Source: a virus (taxonomy: Duplodnaviria; Heunggongvirae; Uroviricota; Caudoviricetes). Taken from it: a DNA stretch of 30,880 bases. The translations under genes were made by a program, and so were the position numbers. This document shows, one piece after another, positions 9,686-29,426 of the stretch. The notes under the pieces are model-generated. The model made no database searches and was not told the origin of the DNA. It was given only the letters and a program-made list of their open reading frames with translations. Every line of letters starts with the position of its first letter. Position 1 is the first letter of the stretch. Location: the IMG/VR virus record IMGVR_UViG_648276660_000001; one strand, given 5' to 3'.

Positions 9686-9762
9686 TGGCGTGGCATGCAG
9701 GATTCGAACCTGCGACCAACCGCTTAGAAGGCGGTTGCTCTGTCCAACTGAGCTAATGCCAC
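9686..9762 (-). tRNA. tRNA-Arg (anticodon UCU), phage-encoded
   Basis: Minus-strand 77 nt: GTGGCAT-TA-GCTC-AGTTGGACA-GAGC-A-ACCGC-CTTCTAA-GCGGT-TGGTC-GCAGG-TTCGAAT-CCTGC-ATGCCAC-G-CCA; 7-bp acceptor stem, canonical D, anticodon and T arms; anticodon loop CTTCTAA gives TCT; encoded CCA end. Confidence 0.9.
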
Positions 9763-14967: not shown

Positions 14968-15291
14968 ATGGAACTCGTAAACCTCAAAACCGGCACTGAC
15001 AGCTACCAGGATGAGAGCGGAGAAACCAGAACTCGCGATGAATACCCGTGGGGGCTGTGCATCACTCTTAATAACGACACATTGAATAAGCTGAAGGCAC
15101 AACCTCAGGGCGTCGGAACAGAAGTGATGATAACTGCAAAGGCTGTTATTCGAGGCCTGTCTGCCAGAGAAACTGACGATGGTGTTAATCGCAGCGCCGA
15201 TCTGCAGATCACTGATATGGCGATCGCTCCTGTTTCCGGGGATGTAGAAAAATCAGCGGCTGAAACTCTGTACGGTAACGGAGGTGAGTGA
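14968..15291 (+). CDS. Hypothetical virion-module protein
   Basis: AGGAG RBS 6 nt before ATG 14968; 107 aa. Confidence 0.55.
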   Translation: MELVNLKTGTDSYQDESGETRTRDEYPWGLCITLNNDTLNKLKAQPQGVGTEVMITAKAVIRGLSARETDDGVNRSADLQITDMAIAPVSGDVEKSAAETLYGNGGE

Positions 15292-15896
15292 TGGCCTCTG
15301 TAGTAGAGATCTGTAATCGTGCGCTGTCCAATATTGGCAATAGCCGCAGCATTAACAGCCTGACGGAAGCCAGCAAGGAAGCGGGGGAATGTTCGCTGCA
15401 CTTTGAGGCCTGCCGTGATGCTGTGCTTTCTGATTTTGACTGGAACTTTGCTACCAAACGCGTGGCGCTTGCAGATACGAGCAATCCACCGCCTGACTGG
15501 GAATATGCGTACCAGTACCCGTCCGATTGTCTGCGCATTACTGAAATTATGCTTCCTGGTGTACGCAATCCAACAGCAGCAATGCGCGTTCAGTACGAAG
15601 TAGGTGTAGACACCAACGGAACAGGAAAGTTGATCTACACAGACCAGCCTCAGGCATGGCTCAAGTATGTCTCTCGCGTTACAGATGTGAACATGTTTGA
15701 TGCCATTTTTATGGAGGCGTTGGCCTGGCGTCTTGCGGCAGCTATTAACATGGCGCTGACTGGGAATGCAGACCTCGGTACGTTTGCCCTCAATATGTAC
15801 AATCGCGTGATTCTTAGTGCTGGCTCGCATAGCCAGAATGAATCACAGGAACCACAGCCACCGGTTGACGAGTTTACCATTGCGAGGTTGTCCTGA
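15291..15896 (+). CDS. Tail tubular protein A-like (T7 gp11-like adaptor), tentative
   Basis: GGAGG RBS; ~200 aa; N-terminal pattern I..R.LS.IG...I.SL.E resembles recalled T7 gp11; precedes a gp12-sized gene. Confidence 0.6.
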   Translation: MASVVEICNRALSNIGNSRSINSLTEASKEAGECSLHFEACRDAVLSDFDWNFATKRVALADTSNPPPDWEYAYQYPSDCLRITEIMLPGVRNPTAAMRVQYEVGVDTNGTGKLIYTDQPQAWLKYVSRVTDVNMFDAIFMEALAWRLAAAINMALTGNADLGTFALNMYNRVILSAGSHSQNESQEPQPPVDEFTIARLS

Positions 15897-18367
15897 TGGC
15901 TATCAGTTGGATCCAGCCCAGCTTTGCCGGTGGTGAGATTGGACCGTCGTTGTACGGTCGTATCGACATGGCGAAGTACCAGGTGGCTTTGCGCAAGTGC
16001 GATAACTTTATCGTGCGGCAGTATGGCGGCGTTGAGAATCGACCTGGTACGCGTTTTGTCGGTGCCGCCAAATACCCAAATCGGAAATGCCGCCTGATCC
16101 CGTTCCAGTTCTCGACGGTTCAGACCTATGCTCTGGAGTTCGGACACCAGTACATGCGCGTTATCAAAGATGGTGCGTTGGTGCTGAACAGCAGCAATGT
16201 TATTTATGAAATTGCCACGCCATATACTGAAGCCGATCTGTTCCGAATTAAATTCACGCAAAGCGCAGACGTGCTTACGCTGGTTCATCCGGCATACCCG
16301 CCGAAAGAGTTGCGCCGCTATGCGCATGACAACTGGCAACTGGTTGATGTGGTAACGAAGAACGGGCCATTTGAAGATATCAATATTGACGAGTCAGTGA
16401 CGGTTTATGCCAGCGCCAGCACCGGGACAATTACGTTAACGGCAAGCGCCTCTATTTTTGGCGCGGAGCAGGTAGGCAAATTGTTCTATCTGGAACAGCC
16501 TGCAGTGGATTCAGTGCCGGTATGGGAAACCAGTAAGAGTACGTCGATTGGCGATATTCGCCGTGCAGACAGTAACTACTATCGCGCCGTTACAGCAGGC
16601 AAAACAGGCACTTTGCGCCCTTCGCATACAGAAGGCACATCATGGGATGGCTGGGGCGGATCCGGTGATGATGATACTGGCATTGAGTGGGAGTATCTGC
16701 ACAGTGGTTTTGGCATTGCCCGTATAACTGCTGTAAATGGCACTACTGCAACTGCTGAGGTGATTTCCTATATCCCTTCGCAGGTCGTTGGCGAGGATAA
16801 TGCCAGCTATAAATGGGCTAAATATGCCTGGAACAGTGTTAATGGTTATCCTGGCACTGTTGTTTATTATCAACAACGTCTTTACTTCGCCGCATCGACT
16901 GCGTTCCCTCAGACTATCTGGGCCAGCCGTACTGGGGATTATAAGGATTTTGGCAAAAGCAATCCTACGCAGGATGACGACAGAATTATCTACACCTATG
17001 CCGGGCGTCAGGTTAATGAGATCCGCCACCTGATTGATGTCGGTTCGCTGGTGGCACTGACTTCCGGAGGTGAGTACGTCATCACCGGCGACCAGAACAA
17101 AGTGTTAACCCCATCATCATTTGCATTCAGCTCTCAGGGATCAAATGGCTCAAGCAACGTCCCACCAATTGCCGTGGCGAATATTGCTCTGTTCGTCCAG
17201 GAGAAAGGCAGTGTTGTCCGTGATCTGGCCTACTCATTCGATGTTGACGGCTATCAGGGGAGCGACCTGACCATCCTTGCCAATCATCTTTTTCAGAAGC
17301 ACAGCATTGTTGACTGGTGCTTCTCTATTGTCCCTTACTCCAGCGCCTTCTGCATTCGTGATGACGGTAAATTACTGGTGATGACCTATTTGCGTGATCA
17401 GCAGGTTTTTGCATGGGCACCACAATCCAGTACCGGAAAATATGAAAGCACATGCAGTATCAGCGAAGGAAATGAAGATGCGGTGTATTTCGTCGTTAAC
17501 CGAACCGTTAACGGGCAAACAGTGAGATACATCGAGCGACTGTCCAGCCGTTTATTTACCAGCGATGAAGATGCTTTCTTTGTTGATTCTGGCCTTAGCT
17601 ATGATGGAAGAAACACGTCTGACAGAACGATGACCATCACTGGTGGTTCTGGCGAATGGGATTACCGCGCGGAATATACAATCAGTGTTTCTGGTGGTGC
17701 GTACTTCACCAGTAGTGATGTCGGTGCGCAACTACAGTTCCCTTATACCGGAACTGATCCTGATACTGGCGATGAAGTGTCAAAAGAATTACGTTGCGAC
17801 ATTATTTCTGTAACCAGCAACACCGCTGTAGTGGTTCGTGCTAACAGGAACGTCCCGCCATCCCTCAGGAATGTGGCCACCACGAACTGGCAGATGGCGC
17901 GCCGGGCATTTGGCGGCTTGTCTCATCTTGAAGGTCAGACCGTAAACATCCTCTCTGATGCGAACGTGGAACCACAGAAAGTAGTTTCCGGAGGTGCCGT
18001 CACGCTGGAATCACCGGGGGCTGTAGTGCACATCGGCCTGCCAATAACTGCTGAATTCGAAACACTGGATATCAACATTAACGGACAGGAAACGCTGCTG
18101 GACAAAAAACAGGTGATCCCATCCGTTACTCTGGTTGTGAATGCCAGCCGCGGCATCTGGGCGACTACGCCCGGCGGTAAATGGTACGAATATCCACAGC
18201 GTGAATTCGAGTTCTACGATGATCCTGTTGATGACGCTACCGGAAAAGTAGAAGTGAAACTGGACAGTAACTGGGGCAAAAACGGACGTGTAAGAATCCG
18301 TCAGCTTGACCCGTTGCCGCTGTCTGTTCTTGCCGTTATTCCTCGTCTTACTGTTGGGGGATTCTGA
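15896..18367 (+). CDS. Tail tubular protein B-like (T7 gp12-like nozzle), tentative
   Basis: 823 aa; TGATG start overlap; size and position match T7 gp12 (794 aa). Confidence 0.65.
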   Translation: MAISWIQPSFAGGEIGPSLYGRIDMAKYQVALRKCDNFIVRQYGGVENRPGTRFVGAAKYPNRKCRLIPFQFSTVQTYALEFGHQYMRVIKDGALVLNSSNVIYEIATPYTEADLFRIKFTQSADVLTLVHPAYPPKELRRYAHDNWQLVDVVTKNGPFEDINIDESVTVYASASTGTITLTASASIFGAEQVGKLFYLEQPAVDSVPVWETSKSTSIGDIRRADSNYYRAVTAGKTGTLRPSHTEGTSWDGWGGSGDDDTGIEWEYLHSGFGIARITAVNGTTATAEVISYIPSQVVGEDNASYKWAKYAWNSVNGYPGTVVYYQQRLYFAASTAFPQTIWASRTGDYKDFGKSNPTQDDDRIIYTYAGRQVNEIRHLIDVGSLVALTSGGEYVITGDQNKVLTPSSFAFSSQGSNGSSNVPPIAVANIALFVQEKGSVVRDLAYSFDVDGYQGSDLTILANHLFQKHSIVDWCFSIVPYSSAFCIRDDGKLLVMTYLRDQQVFAWAPQSSTGKYESTCSISEGNEDAVYFVVNRTVNGQTVRYIERLSSRLFTSDEDAFFVDSGLSYDGRNTSDRTMTITGGSGEWDYRAEYTISVSGGAYFTSSDVGAQLQFPYTGTDPDTGDEVSKELRCDIISVTSNTAVVVRANRNVPPSLRNVATTNWQMARRAFGGLSHLEGQTVNILSDANVEPQKVVSGGAVTLESPGAVVHIGLPITAEFETLDININGQETLLDKKQVIPSVTLVVNASRGIWATTPGGKWYEYPQREFEFYDDPVDDATGKVEVKLDSNWGKNGRVRIRQLDPLPLSVLAVIPRLTVGGF

Positions 18368-18831
18368 TGATCGATGTTCAAATTATTCCCGCCACCGAAG
18401 AGCATCTTCAGATGATTTTGCCGGATGTTCGTCAGGCTGATATTGACGAACTGTATGCGGTATCGCTGATGACTACCGAAGATGCGCTGCGTGTTGGTCT
18501 TCGCACTGCGACTATGGCCTGGTCAGGATTTGCGAACGGAGAACTGGTAACCATGTTTGGCGTATCTCCGGCGTCAATGATCGGTGGCAATGGTACGCCC
18601 TGGCTGGTAGGAACCAGCCGTATTGAAAAATATCAGAAGACATTTCTGCGCCACTGCCGCCCTGTATTGCAGCAGATGCTGGCAGTTTATCCGCGCCTGG
18701 AAAACTACGTCGACGAGCGAAACCATGTTGCCAAAGCATGGCTGCACTGGCTTGGATTCAGGCTTGAAGAAGCCGCGCCTTATGGTGCTCTTGGTCTTAA
18801 TTTCCACAGATTTCACATGGAGAGAAAATAA
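18367..18831 (+). CDS. Hypothetical protein at the gp13 position; C-terminus (NHVAKAWLHWLGFRLEE) looks like a GNAT acetyltransferase motif
   Basis: 154 aa; start overlaps upstream stop; the GNAT resemblance is a recalled pattern, not a search result. Confidence 0.55.
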   Translation: MIDVQIIPATEEHLQMILPDVRQADIDELYAVSLMTTEDALRVGLRTATMAWSGFANGELVTMFGVSPASMIGGNGTPWLVGTSRIEKYQKTFLRHCRPVLQQMLAVYPRLENYVDERNHVAKAWLHWLGFRLEEAAPYGALGLNFHRFHMERK

Positions 18832-19376
18832 TGTGCGATCCGGTTATTGCTGGTGGCGCAATGCTCGCCATGAGTGGCATTCAGGCATACACCCAGTACC
18901 AACAGGGAAAGTATGCCTCGAAGGTTGCAGAAGCGAACGCAGATATAGCCACAGCTCAGGCAAATGATGCAATAAACAGAGGTAACGCTGAAGCTGAGCA
19001 ACGGCGCAGAGAGACCCGACAGCGGCTTGGTACACAGGCGGCGACAATGGGGGCTACCGGCGCTGATTTATCTACAGGTAACGCGCTGGATATATTTGGC
19101 GACACTGCCCAGTTTGGCGCTCTTGATTCTCTGACGACGGTGAATAACGCGCAACGCGAGGCTTACGGTTATCAGGTTCAGGCTGCCAACTATAAAGCAG
19201 AAGCCAGTTCAGCCCGTAAACAGGGGAATGTGGGAGCAGCAACAACATTGCTCACTGCGCCTCTGAAGGCATACGGTGCGTACCAGATGTTTGGTGGGAC
19301 GTGGAGTCCGTTTACTCAAAGCACCCCTGCGCCAATCGGAGCAGCAGCAGGAACCAGATTACCCGGAGGATTATAA
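18831..19376 (+). CDS. Internal virion protein B-like (T7 gp14-like), tentative
   Basis: 181 aa beginning MCDPVIAGGAMLAMSGIQA, comparable to T7 gp14 N-terminus MCWAAAIPIAISGAQA (recalled); Ala/Gln-rich. Confidence 0.6.
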   Translation: MCDPVIAGGAMLAMSGIQAYTQYQQGKYASKVAEANADIATAQANDAINRGNAEAEQRRRETRQRLGTQAATMGATGADLSTGNALDIFGDTAQFGALDSLTTVNNAQREAYGYQVQAANYKAEASSARKQGNVGAATTLLTAPLKAYGAYQMFGGTWSPFTQSTPAPIGAAAGTRLPGGL

Positions 19377-21889
19377 TGCCAGTCGTACCAACAGTATCCG
19401 GACGTCAGGTTGAGAGCCGTGGAGTTCAGTCAGCAGGCTTGCAGACGTTTTCTCAGCCAGGTATTGGTGATGCTTTTGTTCGGGCAGGGGCAGAGGCAAT
19501 TGATGTTTTGGGGCAGGCAAAACAGCGTGCCAATATTGCCTTGGCTCAGGAGGCATCTCTTAACCTCAGTCAGATAAGCAGTGATTTGCTGAATAATCCT
19601 GAAACAGGATTGCTTAACCTGAAAGGGAAAAATGCTATTGGAAAAGGCCATGAGTATACGCAGCAGTTTGATGCTCAGGTCGAACAATTGGCTATGTCGC
19701 TGCCGGATGAACAGGCTCGTAATGCTTTCATGCAGCAGGCGCAGCAGCAGCGCATTCAGTTCACTACGCAGGCCGGGCGGCACGAGATAGGGCAAATAAA
19801 TGCCTACGAAGAAGGCCAGTTTCAGGCTACGCTGCTGAACAATGGTAAAAATGCCGCAGCATTGTATGGCGACAACGCCGCATACGTATTGGCTAATAAG
19901 CAAACTTTCCAGCAAATTGAGGATTACGGCATTGCACATGGCTGGAGTGACGAGCAAATCCAGGCCAAGAAAATCGAGTTTAAAGAAGCAACAGCAAAAG
20001 CAACTGCTCAAAATGCTATTGGAGCAAACTATCTTCAGGTAAGATGGCAAAACGGCGAGTTAAGCGATACTGCTGCTGGATCTCGCCGTGCTGTAGCAGA
20101 TAGTGGCTCTTCCGATCGTACCCGCGGTATACGCAACAATAACCCCGGCAATCTTGAATACAGCAAAACTAATCCGTGGGTTGGGCAGACTGGTGATGAT
20201 GGTCGCTTTGCCAAATTCGAAACCCCTGAACACGGTATTCGTGCATTAGGGCGGAACCTGATGTCGTATCAGCGGCAGGGTATTGATACCGTCAGCGAGA
20301 TAATTAATCGCTGGGCACCGCCTACTGATAAAAATGACACTATGTCGTATATCAAAGCAGTGTGCGAACAACTTGGCGTTTCTGCTGATGAGCCTCTCGA
20401 TGCATCAAATCCTGATACCCTGAAGGCGCTTTGTGCAGCCATTATCCATCATGAAAACGGTAGCCAGCCATACAGTGATCAGCAGTTAACTGCAGGTGTT
20501 AGTGCTGCGCTGGGGCTTTCTCAGCTACCGACAAAAAATAAACGTTATACCGGTGTAGCCTGGTTCGATGCTTTAAGTGAATCAGATCAGGCCAGCGTGT
20601 TGCGACAGACTGATGCACTAGCCAGACAACAGCAGGCTGAATATAAAACGATGCTCGACAGCCGGGTTCGCGATGCGACGGCTGCGTATATGCGTGGCGT
20701 TGAATTTCCTAACCCACCTGGTGAGGATGATTTTATTGCAGCTTATGGAGTCAGAGAAGGAAACCTGCGATATACCGAGTTTAAGAATACGCAGATCGCC
20801 GGACAGTATATAGGCTCTTTCCGCAACATGCCGACAAGCAGCATTACAGCATATGTTGAGCAATTACGCCCGGATACTGGTGATACAGGGGAGGGGTATG
20901 CGGCACGCGCAGCTCTTTATGACAACGTTGTTTCGGCTGCAAATCAGGTGATAAAGCAGCGGCAGTCGGATCCTGTGCAGTTCTCTCTTGCCTCCGGACA
21001 GGCAAAGCCTATCGACATGAGCAATAAGGATAACTTTGGACAGAGCGTTGCCTTGCGTGCCGCTCAGGTCAGTGACCTTGCTAAGTCATATGGCACTCCA
21101 CTGACGTTCTTTTCCAAAGACGAGGCCAATCAGATCGGTGTTTTCTTTCGTGATGCGCCAGTTTCCCAACAGGCAGCATATCTCGATACCATCAGGCAGA
21201 GCACTGGTGGTGGGCAGGTGTATATGTCAGCACTACAGCAGATCAGTGCCAACGCTCCATCTGCTGCCGTTGCCGGGATACTGATGGATAAGCCTGGTGG
21301 TATTTTGGCAGAAAAAAACTGGTTTAATCCTGATGTTTCCGTGTCTCCTGAAACCGCAGCGCAGACAATTCTTGCTGGTGCGGCGGCTCGTAAAGGTACT
21401 GATGACGCGAAAGGTATTCCGATGCCTAAAGATGCTGATCTCCGCATTGAGTTTTCTGACATGGTGAAGGATGCATTTGCTGGTGATGCTCAGGGGGCAT
21501 CAATGGCATACGAGATCGCAAAGGACTATTACGCTGGTGTGATGGCGAAAAAAGGCGTGGTATCAGGCGAAATTGACAATGATATCTGGAAACAGGCTGT
21601 TAACGTAGCTACAGGTGGCGTGCATGACTATAACGGAATGGGGAATGTTCTTTTGCCGTGGGGAATGTCTGCAGAGCAATTCGATAAGCAGGTTAATCAG
21701 GCTTGGAATGAACAAGTTGTCGGCACAGGGATAAAAACACCGCTTGGTCAGTATGGTTTGCAAAGTTACGGCGATAGTCAGTACCTGGTGAAACTTGGTA
21801 CTGGTTATCTGCTAAAAGATGATGGTTCTCCCGTTGTTCTTGATCTGACACAGAAGCGTCAGAGATTCTCCGGAGATATTCCGCAATGA
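19376..21889 (+). CDS. Large internal virion/ejection protein with a conserved central block (GIRNNNPGNLEY ... IIHHENG), possibly a cell-wall-acting domain
   Basis: ATG 19376 with GGAGGA RBS and TAATG overlap (the ORF-track extension from 19301 overlaps the upstream gene); 837 aa; position after gp14-like gene. Confidence 0.7.
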   Translation: MPVVPTVSGRQVESRGVQSAGLQTFSQPGIGDAFVRAGAEAIDVLGQAKQRANIALAQEASLNLSQISSDLLNNPETGLLNLKGKNAIGKGHEYTQQFDAQVEQLAMSLPDEQARNAFMQQAQQQRIQFTTQAGRHEIGQINAYEEGQFQATLLNNGKNAAALYGDNAAYVLANKQTFQQIEDYGIAHGWSDEQIQAKKIEFKEATAKATAQNAIGANYLQVRWQNGELSDTAAGSRRAVADSGSSDRTRGIRNNNPGNLEYSKTNPWVGQTGDDGRFAKFETPEHGIRALGRNLMSYQRQGIDTVSEIINRWAPPTDKNDTMSYIKAVCEQLGVSADEPLDASNPDTLKALCAAIIHHENGSQPYSDQQLTAGVSAALGLSQLPTKNKRYTGVAWFDALSESDQASVLRQTDALARQQQAEYKTMLDSRVRDATAAYMRGVEFPNPPGEDDFIAAYGVREGNLRYTEFKNTQIAGQYIGSFRNMPTSSITAYVEQLRPDTGDTGEGYAARAALYDNVVSAANQVIKQRQSDPVQFSLASGQAKPIDMSNKDNFGQSVALRAAQVSDLAKSYGTPLTFFSKDEANQIGVFFRDAPVSQQAAYLDTIRQSTGGGQVYMSALQQISANAPSAAVAGILMDKPGGILAEKNWFNPDVSVSPETAAQTILAGAAARKGTDDAKGIPMPKDADLRIEFSDMVKDAFAGDAQGASMAYEIAKDYYAGVMAKKGVVSGEIDNDIWKQAVNVATGGVHDYNGMGNVLLPWGMSAEQFDKQVNQAWNEQVVGTGIKTPLGQYGLQSYGDSQYLVKLGTGYLLKDDGSPVVLDLTQKRQRFSGDIPQ

Positions 21890-23693: not shown

Positions 23694-26168
23694 ATGAGAC
23701 AGGAATGTATACAAGCGGTCCAGCAGGCGGCGCAGCGCACGTTAACGGCGCGAGAAATACAGAACATTGAAGACCGCATTTATCGAAATATGCGCTCCAT
23801 TGCTCGTGATGACCCGATGTCGTGGCGACAACTTTCCGAATCAGAACGGTTGTATCGTGCAGCACAATTGGCATCTGAAGAATTACAGCGAGAAGCGGCA
23901 TTAAAGAAACGTCGTGTGGCCCTCACTATAGCCGCACGTCAGAGATTGGATAAATTTATCAATAGCTATCAAGGGGCTGATGGGAAACTTGGCGCTCTTA
24001 ACCGTACTATTGCTTTTAATGCAGACGGTAAATCGAATTTCCTCTCTGTTGAATCCAGAACAAAAGCCACCCGTGATTATGCATTGAGTCAATTGCAGGA
24101 GGCATTCGAAGCAGTTGATCCTCGCTTTTTTGGTCTGTTTGAAGATGAAGCGGGCGTACGTGACCTGGTATATGAAATGCGGGGGCAAAATACTGGCAAT
24201 GCTAAAGCAAGAAAAGGTGCTAAGGCGTGGAGAGAAGTTACAGAGCTGCTGCGCCGCCGGTTTAATGATGCTGGTGGGGACATTGGCTATCTCGAAAACT
24301 GGGGGATCCCTCAACATCATTCTATGGAAAAGGTTGGGGCGGTATCAAAGGATAAGTGGGTTAGCGATGTTATAGGTAAGCTGGATCGCAAATATTATAC
24401 CCGAGCCGATGGACAACTGATGAACGATGCCGAGTTGTCTGAATTTCTTGGAGAGGCTTATAACACGATCGCTACTGGTGGGCTGAATAAGCTTACTGAT
24501 ACCGGAATGCGAATTTCCGGCGCACGTGCTAACCGTGGTAATGCATCACGACAGATACATTTCAAAGATGCAGATTCCTATCTGCAATATCAGCAACTTT
24601 ATGGCGATCGCTCTCTATGGGAAATCATGGTCGGTCACCTGGAAGGTATCAGTAAAGATATTGCGCTGGTGGAAACATATGGCCCAAACCCCGATCATGT
24701 TTTCCGCTCCCTTCTTGATCAGGTTAAGGCAGAAACGGCAACAGCTAACCCGAGTAAAACCGGTAGCGTCGAGCGTCTGGCGAACAAAACAGAGAACTTG
24801 TACAACTTTATTTCCGGAAAAACACAGCCTGTAGCGAATCCGCACATCGCGCGATGGTCTGACAATATCCGCAACTGGCTGGTTGCCAGCAGACTCGGAT
24901 CCGCGTTGCTGTCATCGTTCTCTGATCTTGGAACCATGTATCTGTCTGCGAAGGTTACCAACCTTCCAATGAACCAGTTATTTCGCAACCAGCTTGAAGC
25001 TATGGACCCAACGAACCGTACAGAACTTGCGCGGGCGCGCCGCGCTGGCCTGGCGATGGAATCTCTACTTGGCAGCGTTAACCGCTGGGCGATGGATAAT
25101 ATGGGGCCGTCTGTGTCTCGTTGGGCGGCAACGGCGGTAATGCGTGCCAGTGGGCTTACAGCATGGTCAGATGCGCACAAGCGCGCCTATGGCGTAACCA
25201 TGATGGGAAGCCTGGGAGAAGTAGTGTCACGGACACCAGACCTTCGTAGCCTCGATGACTCTGATTTTCGTATCCTGAAAAGCAAAGGGATTACTGACAC
25301 AGACTGGAGCGTATGGAAGCTGGCGCAACAGGAGGACTGGGGGAACGGTAATAATACGATGCTGACACCGGAAAGCATTATGCGTATCCCTGATTCAGCA
25401 GTTAAACATCTTGGTGAGCCTGAACGCGTGAAATTTGAGGCAATGCGTAAACTGCTCGGTGCCGTAACTGAAGAAGTTGATATGGCTGTTATTACACCGG
25501 GCGCACGTGAACAGATGTTCGTAGGGTCTGGTCTTCAGCGTGGAACATGGAAAGGTGAATTAACGAGAAGTGTTTTCCTGTTTAAATCGTTCCCTATCTC
25601 GGTAGTTATGCGTCACTGGCATAGAGCTATGGGGATGCCGTCTGCTGGTGGGCGTGCGGCATATATAGCAACGTTTTTAGCAAGCACAACCATGCTTGGT
25701 GCTCTTTCCATGCAGATTACTGATCTTATTAATGGGAGAAATCCAAAAGAAATGACCGGTGACAACATGGTTAAATTCTGGATAAATGCATTTTTAAAAG
25801 GTGGTGGGGCAGGGTTGTATGGTGATTTTCTTTTCTCTGACCACACCAGGTACGGGAGCGGCGCACTAGCGTCGATGCTTGGCCCGGTAGCTGGTCTGGT
25901 TGATGACGTAGTGAAGATTGCTCAGGGCATACCGTTAAATGCTGTGGAAGGGAAGAATGAGCAGACTGGTGGTGATCTGGTTAAGCTTGGGAAAGGTTTG
26001 ATGCCTGGTGCGAATCTCTGGTACTTGAAGGCGGCTCTCGATCACATGATCTTTAATCAGATGCAGGAGTATTTTTCACCAGGCTATTTGCGTAAAATGG
26101 AGCAACGTTCGAAGAAAGAGTTTAACCAGACATACTGGTGGCGACCTCAGGATGTCACTCCGCAATAA
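23694..26168 (+). CDS. Large internal virion/ejection protein
   Basis: 824 aa; last large gene of the late operon before the accessory island. Confidence 0.7.
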   Translation: MRQECIQAVQQAAQRTLTAREIQNIEDRIYRNMRSIARDDPMSWRQLSESERLYRAAQLASEELQREAALKKRRVALTIAARQRLDKFINSYQGADGKLGALNRTIAFNADGKSNFLSVESRTKATRDYALSQLQEAFEAVDPRFFGLFEDEAGVRDLVYEMRGQNTGNAKARKGAKAWREVTELLRRRFNDAGGDIGYLENWGIPQHHSMEKVGAVSKDKWVSDVIGKLDRKYYTRADGQLMNDAELSEFLGEAYNTIATGGLNKLTDTGMRISGARANRGNASRQIHFKDADSYLQYQQLYGDRSLWEIMVGHLEGISKDIALVETYGPNPDHVFRSLLDQVKAETATANPSKTGSVERLANKTENLYNFISGKTQPVANPHIARWSDNIRNWLVASRLGSALLSSFSDLGTMYLSAKVTNLPMNQLFRNQLEAMDPTNRTELARARRAGLAMESLLGSVNRWAMDNMGPSVSRWAATAVMRASGLTAWSDAHKRAYGVTMMGSLGEVVSRTPDLRSLDDSDFRILKSKGITDTDWSVWKLAQQEDWGNGNNTMLTPESIMRIPDSAVKHLGEPERVKFEAMRKLLGAVTEEVDMAVITPGAREQMFVGSGLQRGTWKGELTRSVFLFKSFPISVVMRHWHRAMGMPSAGGRAAYIATFLASTTMLGALSMQITDLINGRNPKEMTGDNMVKFWINAFLKGGGAGLYGDFLFSDHTRYGSGALASMLGPVAGLVDDVVKIAQGIPLNAVEGKNEQTGGDLVKLGKGLMPGANLWYLKAALDHMIFNQMQEYFSPGYLRKMEQRSKKEFNQTYWWRPQDVTPQ

Positions 26169-27611: not shown

Positions 27612-28298
27612 TCAGAAGAACCCAGCCTTGTCGTTGATGTACTCCGCGTGGGTCTGGATATCACGCAGGCATTTGCTCACACCAACAATGTAGCAGAACA
27701 TGGTGGTCAGCTCCGCCGCCGCGCCCGATACGTCGTGCCCGTCTTCCTGTAACTGGTTCAGCAGATTCATCAGCAGTGAGTTCTCCGTCAGGCCGAGAAC
27801 ACCAGACGGAGAATGAATCAGGCTGCGGTAGCCGGGCTTCAGTGGGGCACTGTAGGTTTTGTTCTCTATCTTCATTGCCTGCATCACTGCTGATGCTGTG
27901 GCGTTGGCTACCTGGTCGGCAACTATCTTTATGCGTTCTTCCTGCGGGAGCGAGTTTTTAATGTAACTTCCGGTGCGGCGGATCTGAGGAAGAACCTCAC
28001 CTGTAACCCATTTACGAAAGCGGTAGGGGATAGTGCCTGGTGTCACTGCGTCGCGGCAGCGGAGGATCAGTGTGTAGAGGCCTGACTCGTTGATAATATT
28101 GGTTTCACCTTGACGGCCTAAGTTAAATTTAGCCCTTTCATCATCATCAAGAGATTTTATTGACATAGTGGGGTTTGTCAGTTGAAGAGCTTTAATAACG
28201 TCTTTGGCAACAAACCAAGGATTTCCATCAATAACAATGGCTCGAATGGTGGCTTCTGATTCAAAATGAAAAACAGATGGGGTTACGTTAGCAGTCAT
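27612..28298 (-). CDS. Antirepressor (Bro-N N-terminal domain plus Ant/KilA-C-like C-terminal domain)
   Basis: Translation contains FHFESEATIRAIVIDGNPWFVAKDVIKALQL, typical of Bro-N/AntA domains (recalled); ATG 28298 with GGTGA RBS 6 nt upstream (GTG at 28307 is the alternative). Confidence 0.8.
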   Translation of the reverse strand: MTANVTPSVFHFESEATIRAIVIDGNPWFVAKDVIKALQLTNPTMSIKSLDDDERAKFNLGRQGETNIINESGLYTLILRCRDAVTPGTIPYRFRKWVTGEVLPQIRRTGSYIKNSLPQEERIKIVADQVANATASAVMQAMKIENKTYSAPLKPGYRSLIHSPSGVLGLTENSLLMNLLNQLQEDGHDVSGAAAELTTMFCYIVGVSKCLRDIQTHAEYINDKAGFF

Positions 28299-28456
28299 AG
28301 TGATCACCTTTTAGTATGGTTAATCACCACCTGAGGTGCAAATCTCGTTGGTGGTGAGACGTACAGGGTTTGCACTACCGGCTAAAAGGACCCGGCGCAC
28401 CTTTCGGTGCCCCTGCACGTCCCACCATAATTCTGGCATGACTGTGCTATACGCAT

Positions 28457-28478
28457 AAAAAAACCACGTCTGGCGTGG
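28457..28478 (-). terminator. Intrinsic terminator inside the antirepressor leader (CCACG-ccaga-CGTGG followed by TTTTTTT on minus strand)
   Basis: Hairpin plus U7 read in sequence, about 160 nt upstream of the ant start. Confidence 0.5.
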
Positions 28479-28640
28479 TATGCGCCTTTTAGTAATCCGG
28501 GGTGCAAATCCCGGCACTGGATTTTGCCAGTGCCCGATTACTATGGCACAAGAGGAGTGCGATGTAAATTTACCGAAAAGGTAATGATAAGCGCGAAAAA
28601 ACATTAAAATCAACCGTATTTGGTTGATTGCGTTTAACGC

Positions 28641-28697: not shown

Positions 28698-29426
28698 ATG
28701 GAAGTTTTCTGGATAGTTGTTGGTGTGGTTGCGGTGATTATTTACGTTATCAACCAGAACAAGACTAAGATCTCTGATCGTACGGTCGTTAATCAGAACA
28801 AAACGATAAAGACCGAAGATGGGGAGATAACGATTAATCGTACACAGGTGATAGAGCACACATCTACTCAGTTTCAAAAAACTGGAGGTAACGCGCCTGA
28901 TATTTCCGTACCTCCTGCTTATGATAGTGCGGTAATCCAGACATATTATAAACAGCAGGAGTTAGCAAAAGAGAGGCAACTGATTCAGCCAAAGCCGTTT
29001 ACAGCTGAGCTTCCACCTGGAGTGTCAACGCGTCCGGCATATCATGGAAGATTCCCTGGTGATGACATATCGTCTCAGTCATTTAAAAAAGCACCTCAGG
29101 CAGTATCAGAGCCAGCAAGAATATCTTCTGTATCGCCGCCAAAAGAAGAATCAGCTAACAGAGTTTCAAGCGGTAGCAAGCAGTGCTTGCGATGCAGAAT
29201 AAACCTTCCATATGAAAAATTCAGGAAATCGTCAAAAAATCCGGATGGATTGACTAAGTGGTGTGCAAGGTGTCTCGATGGCCCAAAGAATACACGTCAT
29301 ATGAAGTGGTGCCCAATTTGTAATGTCCGCAGAAAACGAACCAGCTTTTACCCTAATAATCAAAATGCGGACGGCTTAATGGCATGGTGCAAAACGTGCT
29401 GGGACGAGCACAAAGCGAAACGATAG
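28698..29426 (+). CDS. Membrane-anchored protein with C-terminal repeated zinc-ribbon motifs (cargo gene)
   Basis: GAGG RBS; N-terminal hydrophobic helix MEVFWIVVGVVAVIIYVI; C-terminus has four CxxC pairs, two in near-identical context (PDGLTKWCARCLD and ADGLMAWCKTCWD); followed by a terminator. Confidence 0.7.
   Translation: MEVFWIVVGVVAVIIYVINQNKTKISDRTVVNQNKTIKTEDGEITINRTQVIEHTSTQFQKTGGNAPDISVPPAYDSAVIQTYYKQQELAKERQLIQPKPFTAELPPGVSTRPAYHGRFPGDDISSQSFKKAPQAVSEPARISSVSPPKEESANRVSSGSKQCLRCRINLPYEKFRKSSKNPDGLTKWCARCLDGPKNTRHMKWCPICNVRRKRTSFYPNNQNADGLMAWCKTCWDEHKAKR

What the first reader, a model, noticed from the sequence alone, without database searches (positions are those of the whole stretch)
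20100..20470. Conserved-looking GIRNNNPGNLEY ... IIHHENG block inside an internal virion protein
Seen in sequence: a compact, motif-rich segment (RNNNPGN, W..Q.GDDGRFAKF.TPE.G.RAL, IIHHENG) embedded in an otherwise low-complexity ejection protein. In T7-type phages the cell-wall-degrading domain sits in the largest internal protein; here a candidate enzymatic domain appears in the first of three large proteins, suggesting domain shuffling. Function is unverified.
Basis: partly seen in the sequence, partly recalled or inferred. Interest (0 to 1): 0.4.

Follow-up and report, generated by a model that had tools for sequence, protein, structure and literature searches.

The report
Cell-wall-cutting domain in phage ejection protein
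The conserved block is a real, already-described type of peptidoglycan-cutting enzyme domain (the kind solved in the phage Enc34 endolysin) sitting in the middle of an internal virion protein of a phiV10/epsilon15-like E. coli phage, where it most likely opens the cell wall during DNA injection; it is ordinary for this phage group.

Summary
Observation confirmed. All quoted motifs are in the + strand gene 19376..21889 (837 aa): GIRNNNPGNLEY at aa 251-262 and IIHHENG at aa 356-362. The full domain is aa 249-380 (nt 20120-20515), slightly longer than the flagged span.

It is an Enc34/PHA02564-type muralytic domain:
- phmmer gives E 2e-17 to PDB 7Q47 and 9e-39 to 9VVP Gp29.
- The three residues called catalytic in Enc34 (Glu131, Trp79, Tyr95) are conserved as E360, W313 and Y325.

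The gene is the ortholog of phiV10 gp18 and epsilon15 gp15, the latter already annotated 'putative lytic transglycosylase'. It lies directly after a T7-gp14-family gene, in the ejection-protein operon.

Domain shuffling is supported:
- Of 831 phage records that match the protein, only 28 cover at least 80% of it; the other listed hits fall within aa ~204-414.
- Kayfunaviruses carry the domain at the N-terminus of their gp16 equivalent.
- BcepC6B gp15 is a full-length homologue without the domain.
- BPP-1 Bbp11 has an SLT domain in a similar position.

The flanks are structured helical regions, not low-complexity sequence. Activity in this protein is untested. Verdict: already known, low interest.

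The parts
19376..21889 (+). Gene for the 837-aa virion protein, ortholog of phiV10 gp18 and epsilon15 gp15. GGAGG lies at 19365-19369. The ATG overlaps the upstream stop (TAATG), and the gene's own stop overlaps the next start (ATGA).
   Evidence: 98.4% nt identity to phage HEMP4 and 93.5% to phiV10. Annotations. PHROG 992 matches over the full length.
20120..20515 (+). Enc34/PHA02564-type peptidoglycan hydrolase (muralytic) domain, aa 249-380. This is the block the finding describes.
20126..20161 (+). GIRNNNPGNLEY motif (aa 251-262), the N-terminal signature of the family.
   Evidence: G, R, NNN, G and N are invariant in 33 family members and largely invariant in 21 proteins with the gp15-like architecture.
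20312..20314 (+). Trp313 codon (in RWAPP), equivalent to Enc34 Trp79.
   Evidence: Alignment to 7q47_A, position, conserved in at least 90% of sequences. Role taken from PMC8943055.
20348..20350 (+). Tyr325 codon (in MSYIKAV), equivalent to Enc34 Tyr95.
   Evidence: Invariant. Role taken from PMC8943055.
20453..20455 (+). Glu360 codon (in IIHHENG), equivalent to the proposed catalytic Glu131 of Enc34.
   Evidence: Invariant in 21 diverse gp15-like proteins. PMC8943055.
19472..20053 (+). N-terminal long-helix region, aa 33-226. It is part of the conserved gp15-family scaffold.
   Evidence: AF2 of the full-length protein. hhalign to BPP-1 Bbp11 (prob 95.8%) and to BcepC6B gp15. 71-77% identity to epsilon15 and Klebsiella orthologs.
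20063..20131 (+). Predicted disordered linker, aa 230-252, just before the domain. It appears to be a site where modules are inserted or exchanged.
   Evidence: pLDDT below 50. The 935-aa variants carry about 98 extra residues here. BcepC6B gp15 has a gap from here to about aa 389.
20558..21886 (+). Post-domain helical region (aa 395-640) and C-terminal alpha/beta region (aa 658-837). From about aa 530 onward the sequence is mosaic between phage lineages.
   Evidence: C-terminal identity is 88-99% to the phiV10/65FD type but 21-23% to the epsilon15/Klebsiella type.
18831..19376 (+). Upstream gene, a T7 gp14-family internal virion protein (the outer-membrane pore component in T7).
   Evidence: Pfam PF24072 scores 31.2 bits against a gathering threshold of 27. 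PHROG 418 'internal virion protein'.
18367..18831 (+). Internal virion protein gene, counterpart of epsilon15 gp13 and in the T7 gp13/IVP-A position.
   Evidence: PHROG 308. Annotations. PMC4819975.
21886..23688 (+). Second large protein (600 aa), counterpart of epsilon15 gp16. No enzymatic domain was detected.
   Evidence: PHROG 1145. No Pfam match and no significant PDB sequence match.
23694..26168 (+). Third large protein (824 aa), counterpart of epsilon15 gp17, which is assigned as the T7 gp16 (IVP-D) homologue. It has no muralytic domain.
   Evidence: PHROG 684. PMC4819975 Table 2. No Pfam or PDB match.

Best explanation
The block is the catalytic domain of an Enc34/PHA02564-type peptidoglycan glycosidase, a lysozyme-like all-helical fold. 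It is inserted, through a disordered linker, into the middle of a helical virion protein. That protein is the ortholog of epsilon15 gp15 and phiV10 gp18, and it is encoded in the ejection-protein operon of a phiV10-like temperate podophage of E. coli.

Shown here:
- Family membership by sequence and by predicted fold.
- Conservation of the Glu/Trp/Tyr active-site signature.
- Strong purifying selection on the domain.
- Synteny with T7-type internal virion proteins.
- The cassette-like distribution of the domain among phages.

Inferred:
- The protein is packaged in the virion and expelled through the tail at infection.
- The domain folds in the periplasm and locally cleaves the glycan strands of the murein. 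The family's characterised members suggest N-acetylglucosaminidase activity.
- This clears a path for the trans-periplasmic DNA channel, as the SLT domain of T7 gp16 does.
- The phage's separate holin-endolysin-spanin cassette, seen in phiV10, handles lysis at the end of infection.
For: Family membership:
- phmmer: 7q47_A (Enc34 endolysin catalytic domain) E 2.2e-17; 9vvp_L (Gp29, residues 3-151) E 8.9e-39.
- Profile searches: E 5.6e-45 and 8.3e-52.
- AF2 model of aa 240-400: pLDDT 88, pTM 0.82.
- Its only significant Foldseek PDB hits are 7q47_A/B (E 7e-11, TM 0.73).

Active site: Enc34 Glu131, Trp79 and Tyr95 (PMC8943055) align with E360, W313 and Y325. E360 and Y325 are invariant and W313 is at least 90% conserved in 21 diverse homologues.

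Biochemistry of the family: the Enc34 ORF39 catalytic domain and M4Lys both degrade peptidoglycan in vitro (PMC8943055; PMC7143992).

Selection: the domain is the most conserved part of the N-terminal two-thirds (83-86% against 71-77% identity), with dN/dS of 0.02-0.07.

Context:
- The upstream gene hits Pfam T7_gp14, and the neighbours are PHROG internal virion proteins.
- epsilon15 gp15 is annotated as a putative lytic transglycosylase.
- Hardies et al. place epsilon15 gp15/gp16 as IVP-C candidates and gp17 as IVP-D.
- epsilon15 has an internal core and forms a tube during infection.
- phiV10 has a separate endolysin, holin and spanins.

Modularity.
Against: - No experiment exists on this protein or, as far as I could find, on epsilon15 gp15. 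It is absent from the 2017 table of virion-associated lysins.
- The catalytic role of Enc34 Glu131 rests on structural superposition in the text I read, not on mutagenesis.
- Bond specificity in the family is unsettled. M4Lys data suggested glucosaminidase plus endopeptidase activity.
- The location of gp15 in the epsilon15 virion is not settled. One citation places gp15 and gp17/16 in the tail injection device (Guichard 2013, as quoted). A review names only gp17 as the core protein.
- I could not read the primary epsilon15 papers.
- In T7 the equivalent activity is needed only under some conditions, so the domain may be dispensable in the laboratory.
Confidence: 0.85

Rival explanations
1. 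The domain is a GH23/SLT-type lytic transglycosylase like the one at the N-terminus of T7 gp16. This is what the epsilon15 GenBank annotation implies (HHpred hit to SltB, 4anr).
For: The epsilon15 gp15 annotation reads 'putative lytic transglycosylase; HHpred 4anr_A'. The Enc34 paper argues for distant common ancestry with GH23 and GH73 enzymes and a shared catalytic Glu. The bond specificity of this protein is untested.
Against: - No Pfam SLT match even at E<=1, whereas T7 gp16, BPP-1 Bbp11 and BcepC6B gp16 match SLT clearly.
- In Enc34 the Glu-bearing helix is in a permuted order relative to GH23/GH73.
- M4Lys digestion products indicated glucosaminidase rather than anhydro-muropeptide formation.
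Confidence: 0.08
2. The domain is a catalytically dead relic. It serves only to bind peptidoglycan, or acts as a structural spacer that anchors the ejection channel in the wall.
For: No activity data exist for this protein. The domain sits inside a structural protein. Binding of sugars to Enc34 crystals could not be shown.
Against: The Glu/Tyr/Trp signature and the RNNNPGN motif are invariant or nearly so across homologues that are 19-74% identical to the window protein and across stand-alone endolysins. dN/dS is 0.02-0.07. Relatives as close as 37-40% identical are active enzymes.
Confidence: 0.04
3. The protein acts at the end of infection as an endolysin (lysis from within), not at entry.
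For: Many family members are true endolysins next to holins. PHROGs label several families containing the domain as 'endolysin'.
Against: - The gene lies in the virion-structure operon between a T7_gp14-family gene and the IVP-D homologue, with start/stop overlaps consistent with translational coupling.
- The protein is 837 aa with large helical flanks.
- The close relative phiV10 has a separate holin, endolysin and Rz/Rz1 cassette.
- The phiV10 ortholog is annotated as a structural protein in GenBank.
Confidence: 0.03

Closest known systems
Hafnia phage Enc34 ORF39 endolysin catalytic domain (PDB 7Q47; NCBI CDD family PHA02564) and Salmonella phage BSPM4 M4Lys
   Different: Those are 26-kDa lysis-cassette endolysins with a C-terminal transmembrane domain. 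Here the domain is internal to an 837-aa virion protein and has no transmembrane segment after it. The AF2 model also shows a short beta-hairpin (aa 271-281) in the loop that Enc34 has between helices 1 and 2.
Salmonella phage epsilon15 gp15 and E. coli phage phiV10 gp18 (genus Uetakevirus)
   Same: Orthologs with the same gene order. phiV10 gp18 is 94% identical overall. epsilon15 gp15 is 57% identical overall and 86% identical in the domain.
   Different: The C-terminal ~300 aa of epsilon15 gp15 is of another type (23% identity). The window protein also has a ~65-nt replaced patch at aa 205-225.
Kayfunavirus internal virion protein D (gp16 equivalent; PDB 9VVP chain L 'Gp29'; IMM-002 gp70)
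   Same: Carries the same Enc34-type domain, about 50% identical, and is likewise an ejection protein of a podophage.
   Different: There the domain is at the extreme N-terminus (aa 3-130) of the third and largest internal protein (~1295 aa), not in the middle of the first large one.
T7 gp16 N-terminal lytic transglycosylase domain
   Same: Presumed same job: a virion-borne wall-cutting domain on an ejection protein that opens the murein for the DNA channel (PMC8954989).
   Different: It belongs to a different family: Pfam SLT, E 1.7e-31, with no match to the Enc34-type profile. It is on IVP-D, at the N-terminus.
BPP-1 Bbp11 and BcepC6B gp15/gp16 (epsilon15 structural supergroup)
   Same: They share the helical gp15-type scaffold. 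BcepC6B gp15 aligns over nearly the full length (prob 99.3%, E 1e-20). The Bbp11 N-terminal region aligns with prob 95.8%. The gene position after the IVP-B gene is the same.
   Different: Bbp11 carries a Pfam SLT domain at aa 325-406 instead. BcepC6B gp15 has no muralytic domain, and its neighbour gp16 carries SLT.
phiKMV gp36 and SP6 gp36 / K1-5 gp38 (gp15-position proteins with lysozyme domains)
   Same: They set a precedent for the wall-degrading domain sitting on the gp15-position protein rather than on gp16.
   Different: According to those papers, they carry lysozyme-type domains, C-terminal in phiKMV gp36. I did not test them here.

Membership tests
Enc34 / PHA02564-type muralytic domain | Significant sequence similarity to the characterised catalytic domain | tested here: met
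   phmmer E 2.2e-17 to 7q47_A. Family profile E 5.6e-45.
Enc34 / PHA02564-type muralytic domain | Enc34-like helical fold (two overlapping helical bundles around a groove) | tested here: met
Enc34 / PHA02564-type muralytic domain | Catalytic glutamate (Enc34 Glu131) on the fifth helix | tested here: met
   E360 in IIHHENG aligns with RHENG of 7q47. It is invariant.
Enc34 / PHA02564-type muralytic domain | Conserved Trp79 and Tyr95 equivalents | tested here: met
   W313 (RWAPP) and Y325.
Enc34 / PHA02564-type muralytic domain | Peptidoglycan-degrading activity | not testable with these tools
   Needs a zymogram or turbidity assay. Shown only for Enc34 ORF39 and M4Lys.
T7-type internal virion / ejection protein module | Gene lies in the block tail tube B - IVP-A - IVP-B - large proteins | tested here: met
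   PHROG 376 tail protein at 15896..18367, PHROG 308 and 418 internal virion proteins, and Pfam T7_gp14 on the gene immediately upstream.
T7-type internal virion / ejection protein module | Protein present in virions and ejected at infection | not testable with these tools
   I found only secondary citations for epsilon15.
T7 gp15 (IVP-C, periplasmic tunnel protein) | Sequence or profile similarity to T7 gp15 | tested here: not met
   hhalign of the A4 profile against T7 gp15 gives probability 0.13%, E 0.44. Hardies et al. also failed by HMM methods.
T7 gp15 (IVP-C, periplasmic tunnel protein) | Fold similarity to solved gp15 structures | tested here: inconclusive
GH23 / SLT lytic transglycosylase | Match to the Pfam SLT domain (PF01464) | tested here: not met
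   No Pfam family at E<=1. The positive controls T7 gp16, Bbp11 and BcepC6B gp16 all match.

The most novel reading that the evidence does not exclude
The epsilon15-type gp15 scaffold may be the true, highly diverged counterpart of the T7 gp15 periplasmic-tunnel protein. It may have a dedicated, recombination-prone slot, the disordered linker after the N-terminal helical region. Unrelated wall-degrading modules appear to be swapped in and out at that slot:
- an Enc34-type domain here;
- an SLT domain in BPP-1 Bbp11;
- nothing in BcepC6B gp15;
- an extra ~98-aa module of unknown function in the 935-aa E. coli and Klebsiella variants.

If so, in these phages the lysin is built into the tunnel protein itself rather than delivered on gp16.
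Probability: 0.3. Interest if true: 0.35.

Novelty: already known. Interest (0 to 1): 0.15.

Why it matters
There is little new biology here.

- The domain family has been solved and assayed (Enc34, M4Lys).
- The ortholog in epsilon15 is already annotated as a wall-degrading protein.
- The mosaic placement of lysin domains on podophage ejection proteins is an established theme.

The practical value is annotation. phiV10-like records call this gene 'head protein', 'capsid and scaffold' or 'hypothetical protein'. It can be re-labelled as an internal virion protein with an Enc34-type peptidoglycan hydrolase domain, with E360 as the residue to mutate.

It is also worth knowing that this very large domain family (over 13,000 clusters at E<=1e-10) has no model in the Pfam or NCBIfam copies searched. 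HMM-based pipelines that rely on those libraries will therefore miss it.

Tried and rejected
- **Pfam and NCBIfam:** scans of the protein and of the block gave nothing.
- **Frameshift at aa 205-225:** I suspected a double frameshift. The nucleotide alignment shows a same-length ~65-nt replaced patch, so it is mosaicism and not a frameshift.
- **Recent horizontal acquisition:** GC content is flat at 0.47-0.51 across the gene.
- **The ~98-aa insert of the 935-aa variants:** no PDB or Pfam match, and only a weak hit to a PHROG of unknown function.
- **The other two large proteins:** neither has a significant PDB sequence match or a Pfam match.
- **Papers not reached:** I could not retrieve Guichard 2013, Jiang 2006 or Chang 2010, or any paper for PDB 9VVP.
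- **Model coordinates:** they are not exposed by the tools, so I could not measure whether E360, W313 and Y325 cluster in the groove.
- **Minus strand:** there is no ORF of 60 aa or more under 20100-20470, and the longer minus-strand ORFs nearby overlap this conserved gene. There are no Rfam hits in the gene.
Full report
**What is there**

The window is a phiV10/epsilon15-like (Uetakevirus) temperate podophage of E. coli. Over the first 25 kb it matches phages PAS61, phiv142-3, HEMP4 and phiV10 at about 97% nucleotide identity.

The finding lies in the + strand gene 19376..21889. GGAGG sits 6 nt upstream of the ATG. The ATG overlaps the stop of the upstream gene, and the gene's own stop overlaps the next start. 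The 837-aa product is 98.8% identical to the HEMP4 protein. At the nucleotide level the gene is 93.5% identical to phiV10 gp18 and about 73% identical to epsilon15 gp15 over the first 61% of its length.

- GIRNNNPGNLEY at aa 251-262.
- WVGQTGDDGRFAKFETPEHGIRAL at aa 268-291.
- IIHHENG at aa 356-362.

The flagged span equals aa 242-365. The conserved, confidently folded unit is aa 249-380, nt 20120-20515.

**What the block is**

Pfam and NCBIfam give nothing. PHROGs shows the same stretch shared by families labelled endolysin, tape measure protein and tail injection transglycosylase.

Against PDB sequences the whole protein matches only two chains, and both matches fall on this block:
- 9vvp_L 'Gp29', residues 3-151, E 8.9e-39.
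- 7q47_A, the catalytic domain of the phage Enc34 endolysin, E 2.2e-17.

Profiles sharpen these matches and find nothing else.

The Enc34 paper describes this domain as follows (PMC8943055):
- It is family PHA02564, an all-helical variant of the lysozyme fold.
- It is muralytic on E. coli, P. aeruginosa and H. alvei.
- Glu131, Trp79 and Tyr95 are the conserved catalytic signature.
- It is probably an N-acetylglucosaminidase.

The related M4Lys also degrades purified peptidoglycan (PMC7143992).

In the HMMER alignment these three residues correspond to E360, W313 and Y325 of the window protein.

**Conservation**

- In 33 family members the RNNNPGN, RWAP, Y and HENG positions are invariant or nearly so.
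- In 21 proteins with the same architecture, which are 19-74% identical to the window protein, all 25 invariant columns lie between aa 251 and 378. They include Y325 and E360.
- Against epsilon15 and a Klebsiella prophage ortholog the domain is 83-86% identical. The N-terminal region is 71-77% identical, the region after the domain 75-76%, and the C-terminal 300 aa 21-23%.
- dN/dS in the domain is 0.02 against phiV10 and about 0.04-0.07 against more distant orthologs, with synonymous sites near saturation.
- GC content shows no sign of recent import.

**Context**

- The gene immediately upstream (18831..19376) reaches the Pfam gathering score for the T7_gp14 family.
- The gene before that is a PHROG internal virion protein. 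Before that come the 823-aa tail protein (PHROG 376, 'tail protein') and the product of 15288..15896, counterpart of epsilon15 gp11, which the record's HHpred note relates to T7 tail tubular protein A.
- Downstream lie a 600-aa and an 824-aa protein with no recognisable enzymatic domain.
- Hardies et al. assign epsilon15 gp17 as the T7 gp16 (IVP-D) homologue and gp15/gp16 as candidates for IVP-C. Their figure marks muralytic domains in these modules (PMC4819975).
- The epsilon15 record already labels gp15 'putative lytic transglycosylase'.
- phiV10 has a separate holin-endolysin-Rz/Rz1 cassette. That argues that the virion-borne domain serves entry rather than lysis.

**Architecture of the whole protein**

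The full-length AlphaFold model (21-sequence alignment, mean pLDDT 80.8, pTM 0.48) predicts the following layout:

| Residues | Prediction |
|---|---|
| 1-41 | low confidence (pLDDT below 50) |
| 33-226 | long helices |
| 230-252 | low-confidence, probably disordered linker |
| ~253-380 | the muralytic domain |
| 395-640 | a helical region |
| 658-837 | an alpha/beta C-terminal part |

The flanks are therefore structured, not low-complexity.

**Domain shuffling**

- tblastn of the whole protein finds 831 phage records. Only 28 cover at least 80% of it, and the other listed hits fall within aa ~204-414, most of them within 248-406.
- A profile search of 1.84 billion cluster representatives finds 18,473 proteins at E<=1e-3 and 13,007 at E<=1e-10.
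- Among the best 150 of these, 71 are stand-alone proteins of 260 aa or less. In longer proteins the domain is N-terminal in 11, central in 53 and C-terminal in 13. Two carry 2 or 4 copies.
- The hosts of the domain include chi-like and Enc34-like endolysins next to holins, D3112/JBD-like siphophage virion proteins, PM2 gene V, small Vibrio phages and microviruses.
- In Kayfunavirus IMM-002 the domain occupies aa 3-130 of the 1296-aa gp16 equivalent. That is the place where T7 gp16 has a Pfam SLT domain.
- Within the epsilon15 structural supergroup, BcepC6B gp15 aligns with the gp15-type profile over almost its full length (prob 99.3%, E 1e-20). It has only about 38 residues opposite aa 234-389, so it lacks the domain. 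Its neighbour gp16 carries an SLT domain.
- BPP-1 Bbp11 shares the N-terminal helical region (prob 95.8%) and carries SLT at aa 325-406.
- Common 935-aa E. coli prophage variants and a Klebsiella phage have about 98 extra residues of unknown function in the linker just before the domain.

The linker after the N-terminal helices thus behaves as a slot where modules are exchanged.

**Mechanism and rivals**

Most likely (0.85), this is an active virion-associated peptidoglycan glycosidase that is expelled with the other ejection proteins. It would cut the murein locally so that the trans-periplasmic DNA conduit can form, as described for T7 gp16-N (PMC8954989). The steps from packaging to periplasmic action are inferred by analogy and from synteny.

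Rivals:
- A GH23-type lytic transglycosylase (0.08). There is no SLT match, and the Glu-bearing helix is in a permuted order.
- An inactive binding module (0.04). The active-site signature is invariant.
- A lysis-from-within endolysin (0.03). The gene is in the structural operon, and relatives have a separate lysis cassette.

**Caveats**

- No assay exists for this protein or for epsilon15 gp15 in the texts I could reach.
- The role of Enc34 Glu131 rests on superposition.
- Bond specificity in the family is unsettled.
- The location of gp15 in the epsilon15 virion is described inconsistently.

**Verdict**

The feature is already known at the level of the family, the ortholog and the general principle. 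Interest is low (0.15).

Noticed in passing
window 19988-20050 (aa 205-225 of the same protein): A patch of about 65 nt is unlike phiV10, 65FD and epsilon15 (ATAKATAQNAIGANYLQVRWQ against KVADAALSQWSANNAI.FIQS). It has the same length as in those phages, and the flanks are nearly identical. This is a local mosaic replacement, not a frameshift. It must be shared by phage HEMP4, whose protein is 98.8% identical overall.
   Followed up: partly
P0133 (935 aa, common in E. coli prophages) and L003:7001-9829 (Klebsiella phage ST11-OXA245phi3.2): These orthologs carry about 98 extra residues directly before the RGIRNNNPGN domain (PYGGEP..GNINLFNRPSVKNEDGTISTVRTISIG..LLSDDEAIALYEKTGKHLGIFD..). There is no Pfam or PDB match, only a weak hit to PHROG 19413, which has unknown function.
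   Followed up: partly
window ~20960-21886 (aa ~530-837): The C-terminal third of the protein is mosaic. The window, phiV10 and Salmonella phage 65FD share one type (88-99% identity). epsilon15 and the Klebsiella phage share another type that is only 21-23% identical.
   Followed up: partly
window 28347-28432 (-) and 28457-28533 (-): Rfam hits above the gathering score to C4 antisense RNA (77.8 bits) and isrK (67.4 bits). Both lie just upstream, in the direction of transcription, of an anti-repressor (Ant-like) gene at 27612..28307 (-). This looks like a P1/P7-style immunity module.
   Followed up: no
window 9686-9762 (-): A tRNA-Arg (anticodon TCT) gene lies between the terminase and portal regions, on the strand opposite to the structural genes.
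   Followed up: no
P0241 (762 aa) and P0242 (1259 aa), from the representative search: These proteins carry four and two tandem copies of the Enc34-type domain, respectively. This is an unusual multi-copy architecture for a muralytic domain.
   Followed up: no
Literature: PMC8954989, Table 1: The review lists 'Epsilon 15 gp11 (229 aa), gp12 (499 aa), gp13 (708 aa)' as gp14/15/16-like proteins. These sizes do not fit the epsilon15 record AY150271.2, where gp11 is 201 aa and tail-tube-A-like, gp12 is 825 aa and gp13 is 154 aa. The row looks as if it came from a P22-like phage. Its statements about epsilon15 having 'small' gp15/gp16 should be treated with caution.
   Followed up: partly
Domain family as a whole: A family with over 13,000 50%-identity clusters at E<=1e-10 has no model in the Pfam-A or NCBIfam copies searched. 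The precomputed Pfam column is empty for all listed members.
   Followed up: partly
window 28698-29426 (+): A 242-aa ORF (PHROG 6762) has C-terminal zinc-finger-like matches to endonuclease VII, HNH and Lar-type families. It sits among minus-strand anti-repressor-region genes, and phiV10 has no counterpart at this position.
   Followed up: no
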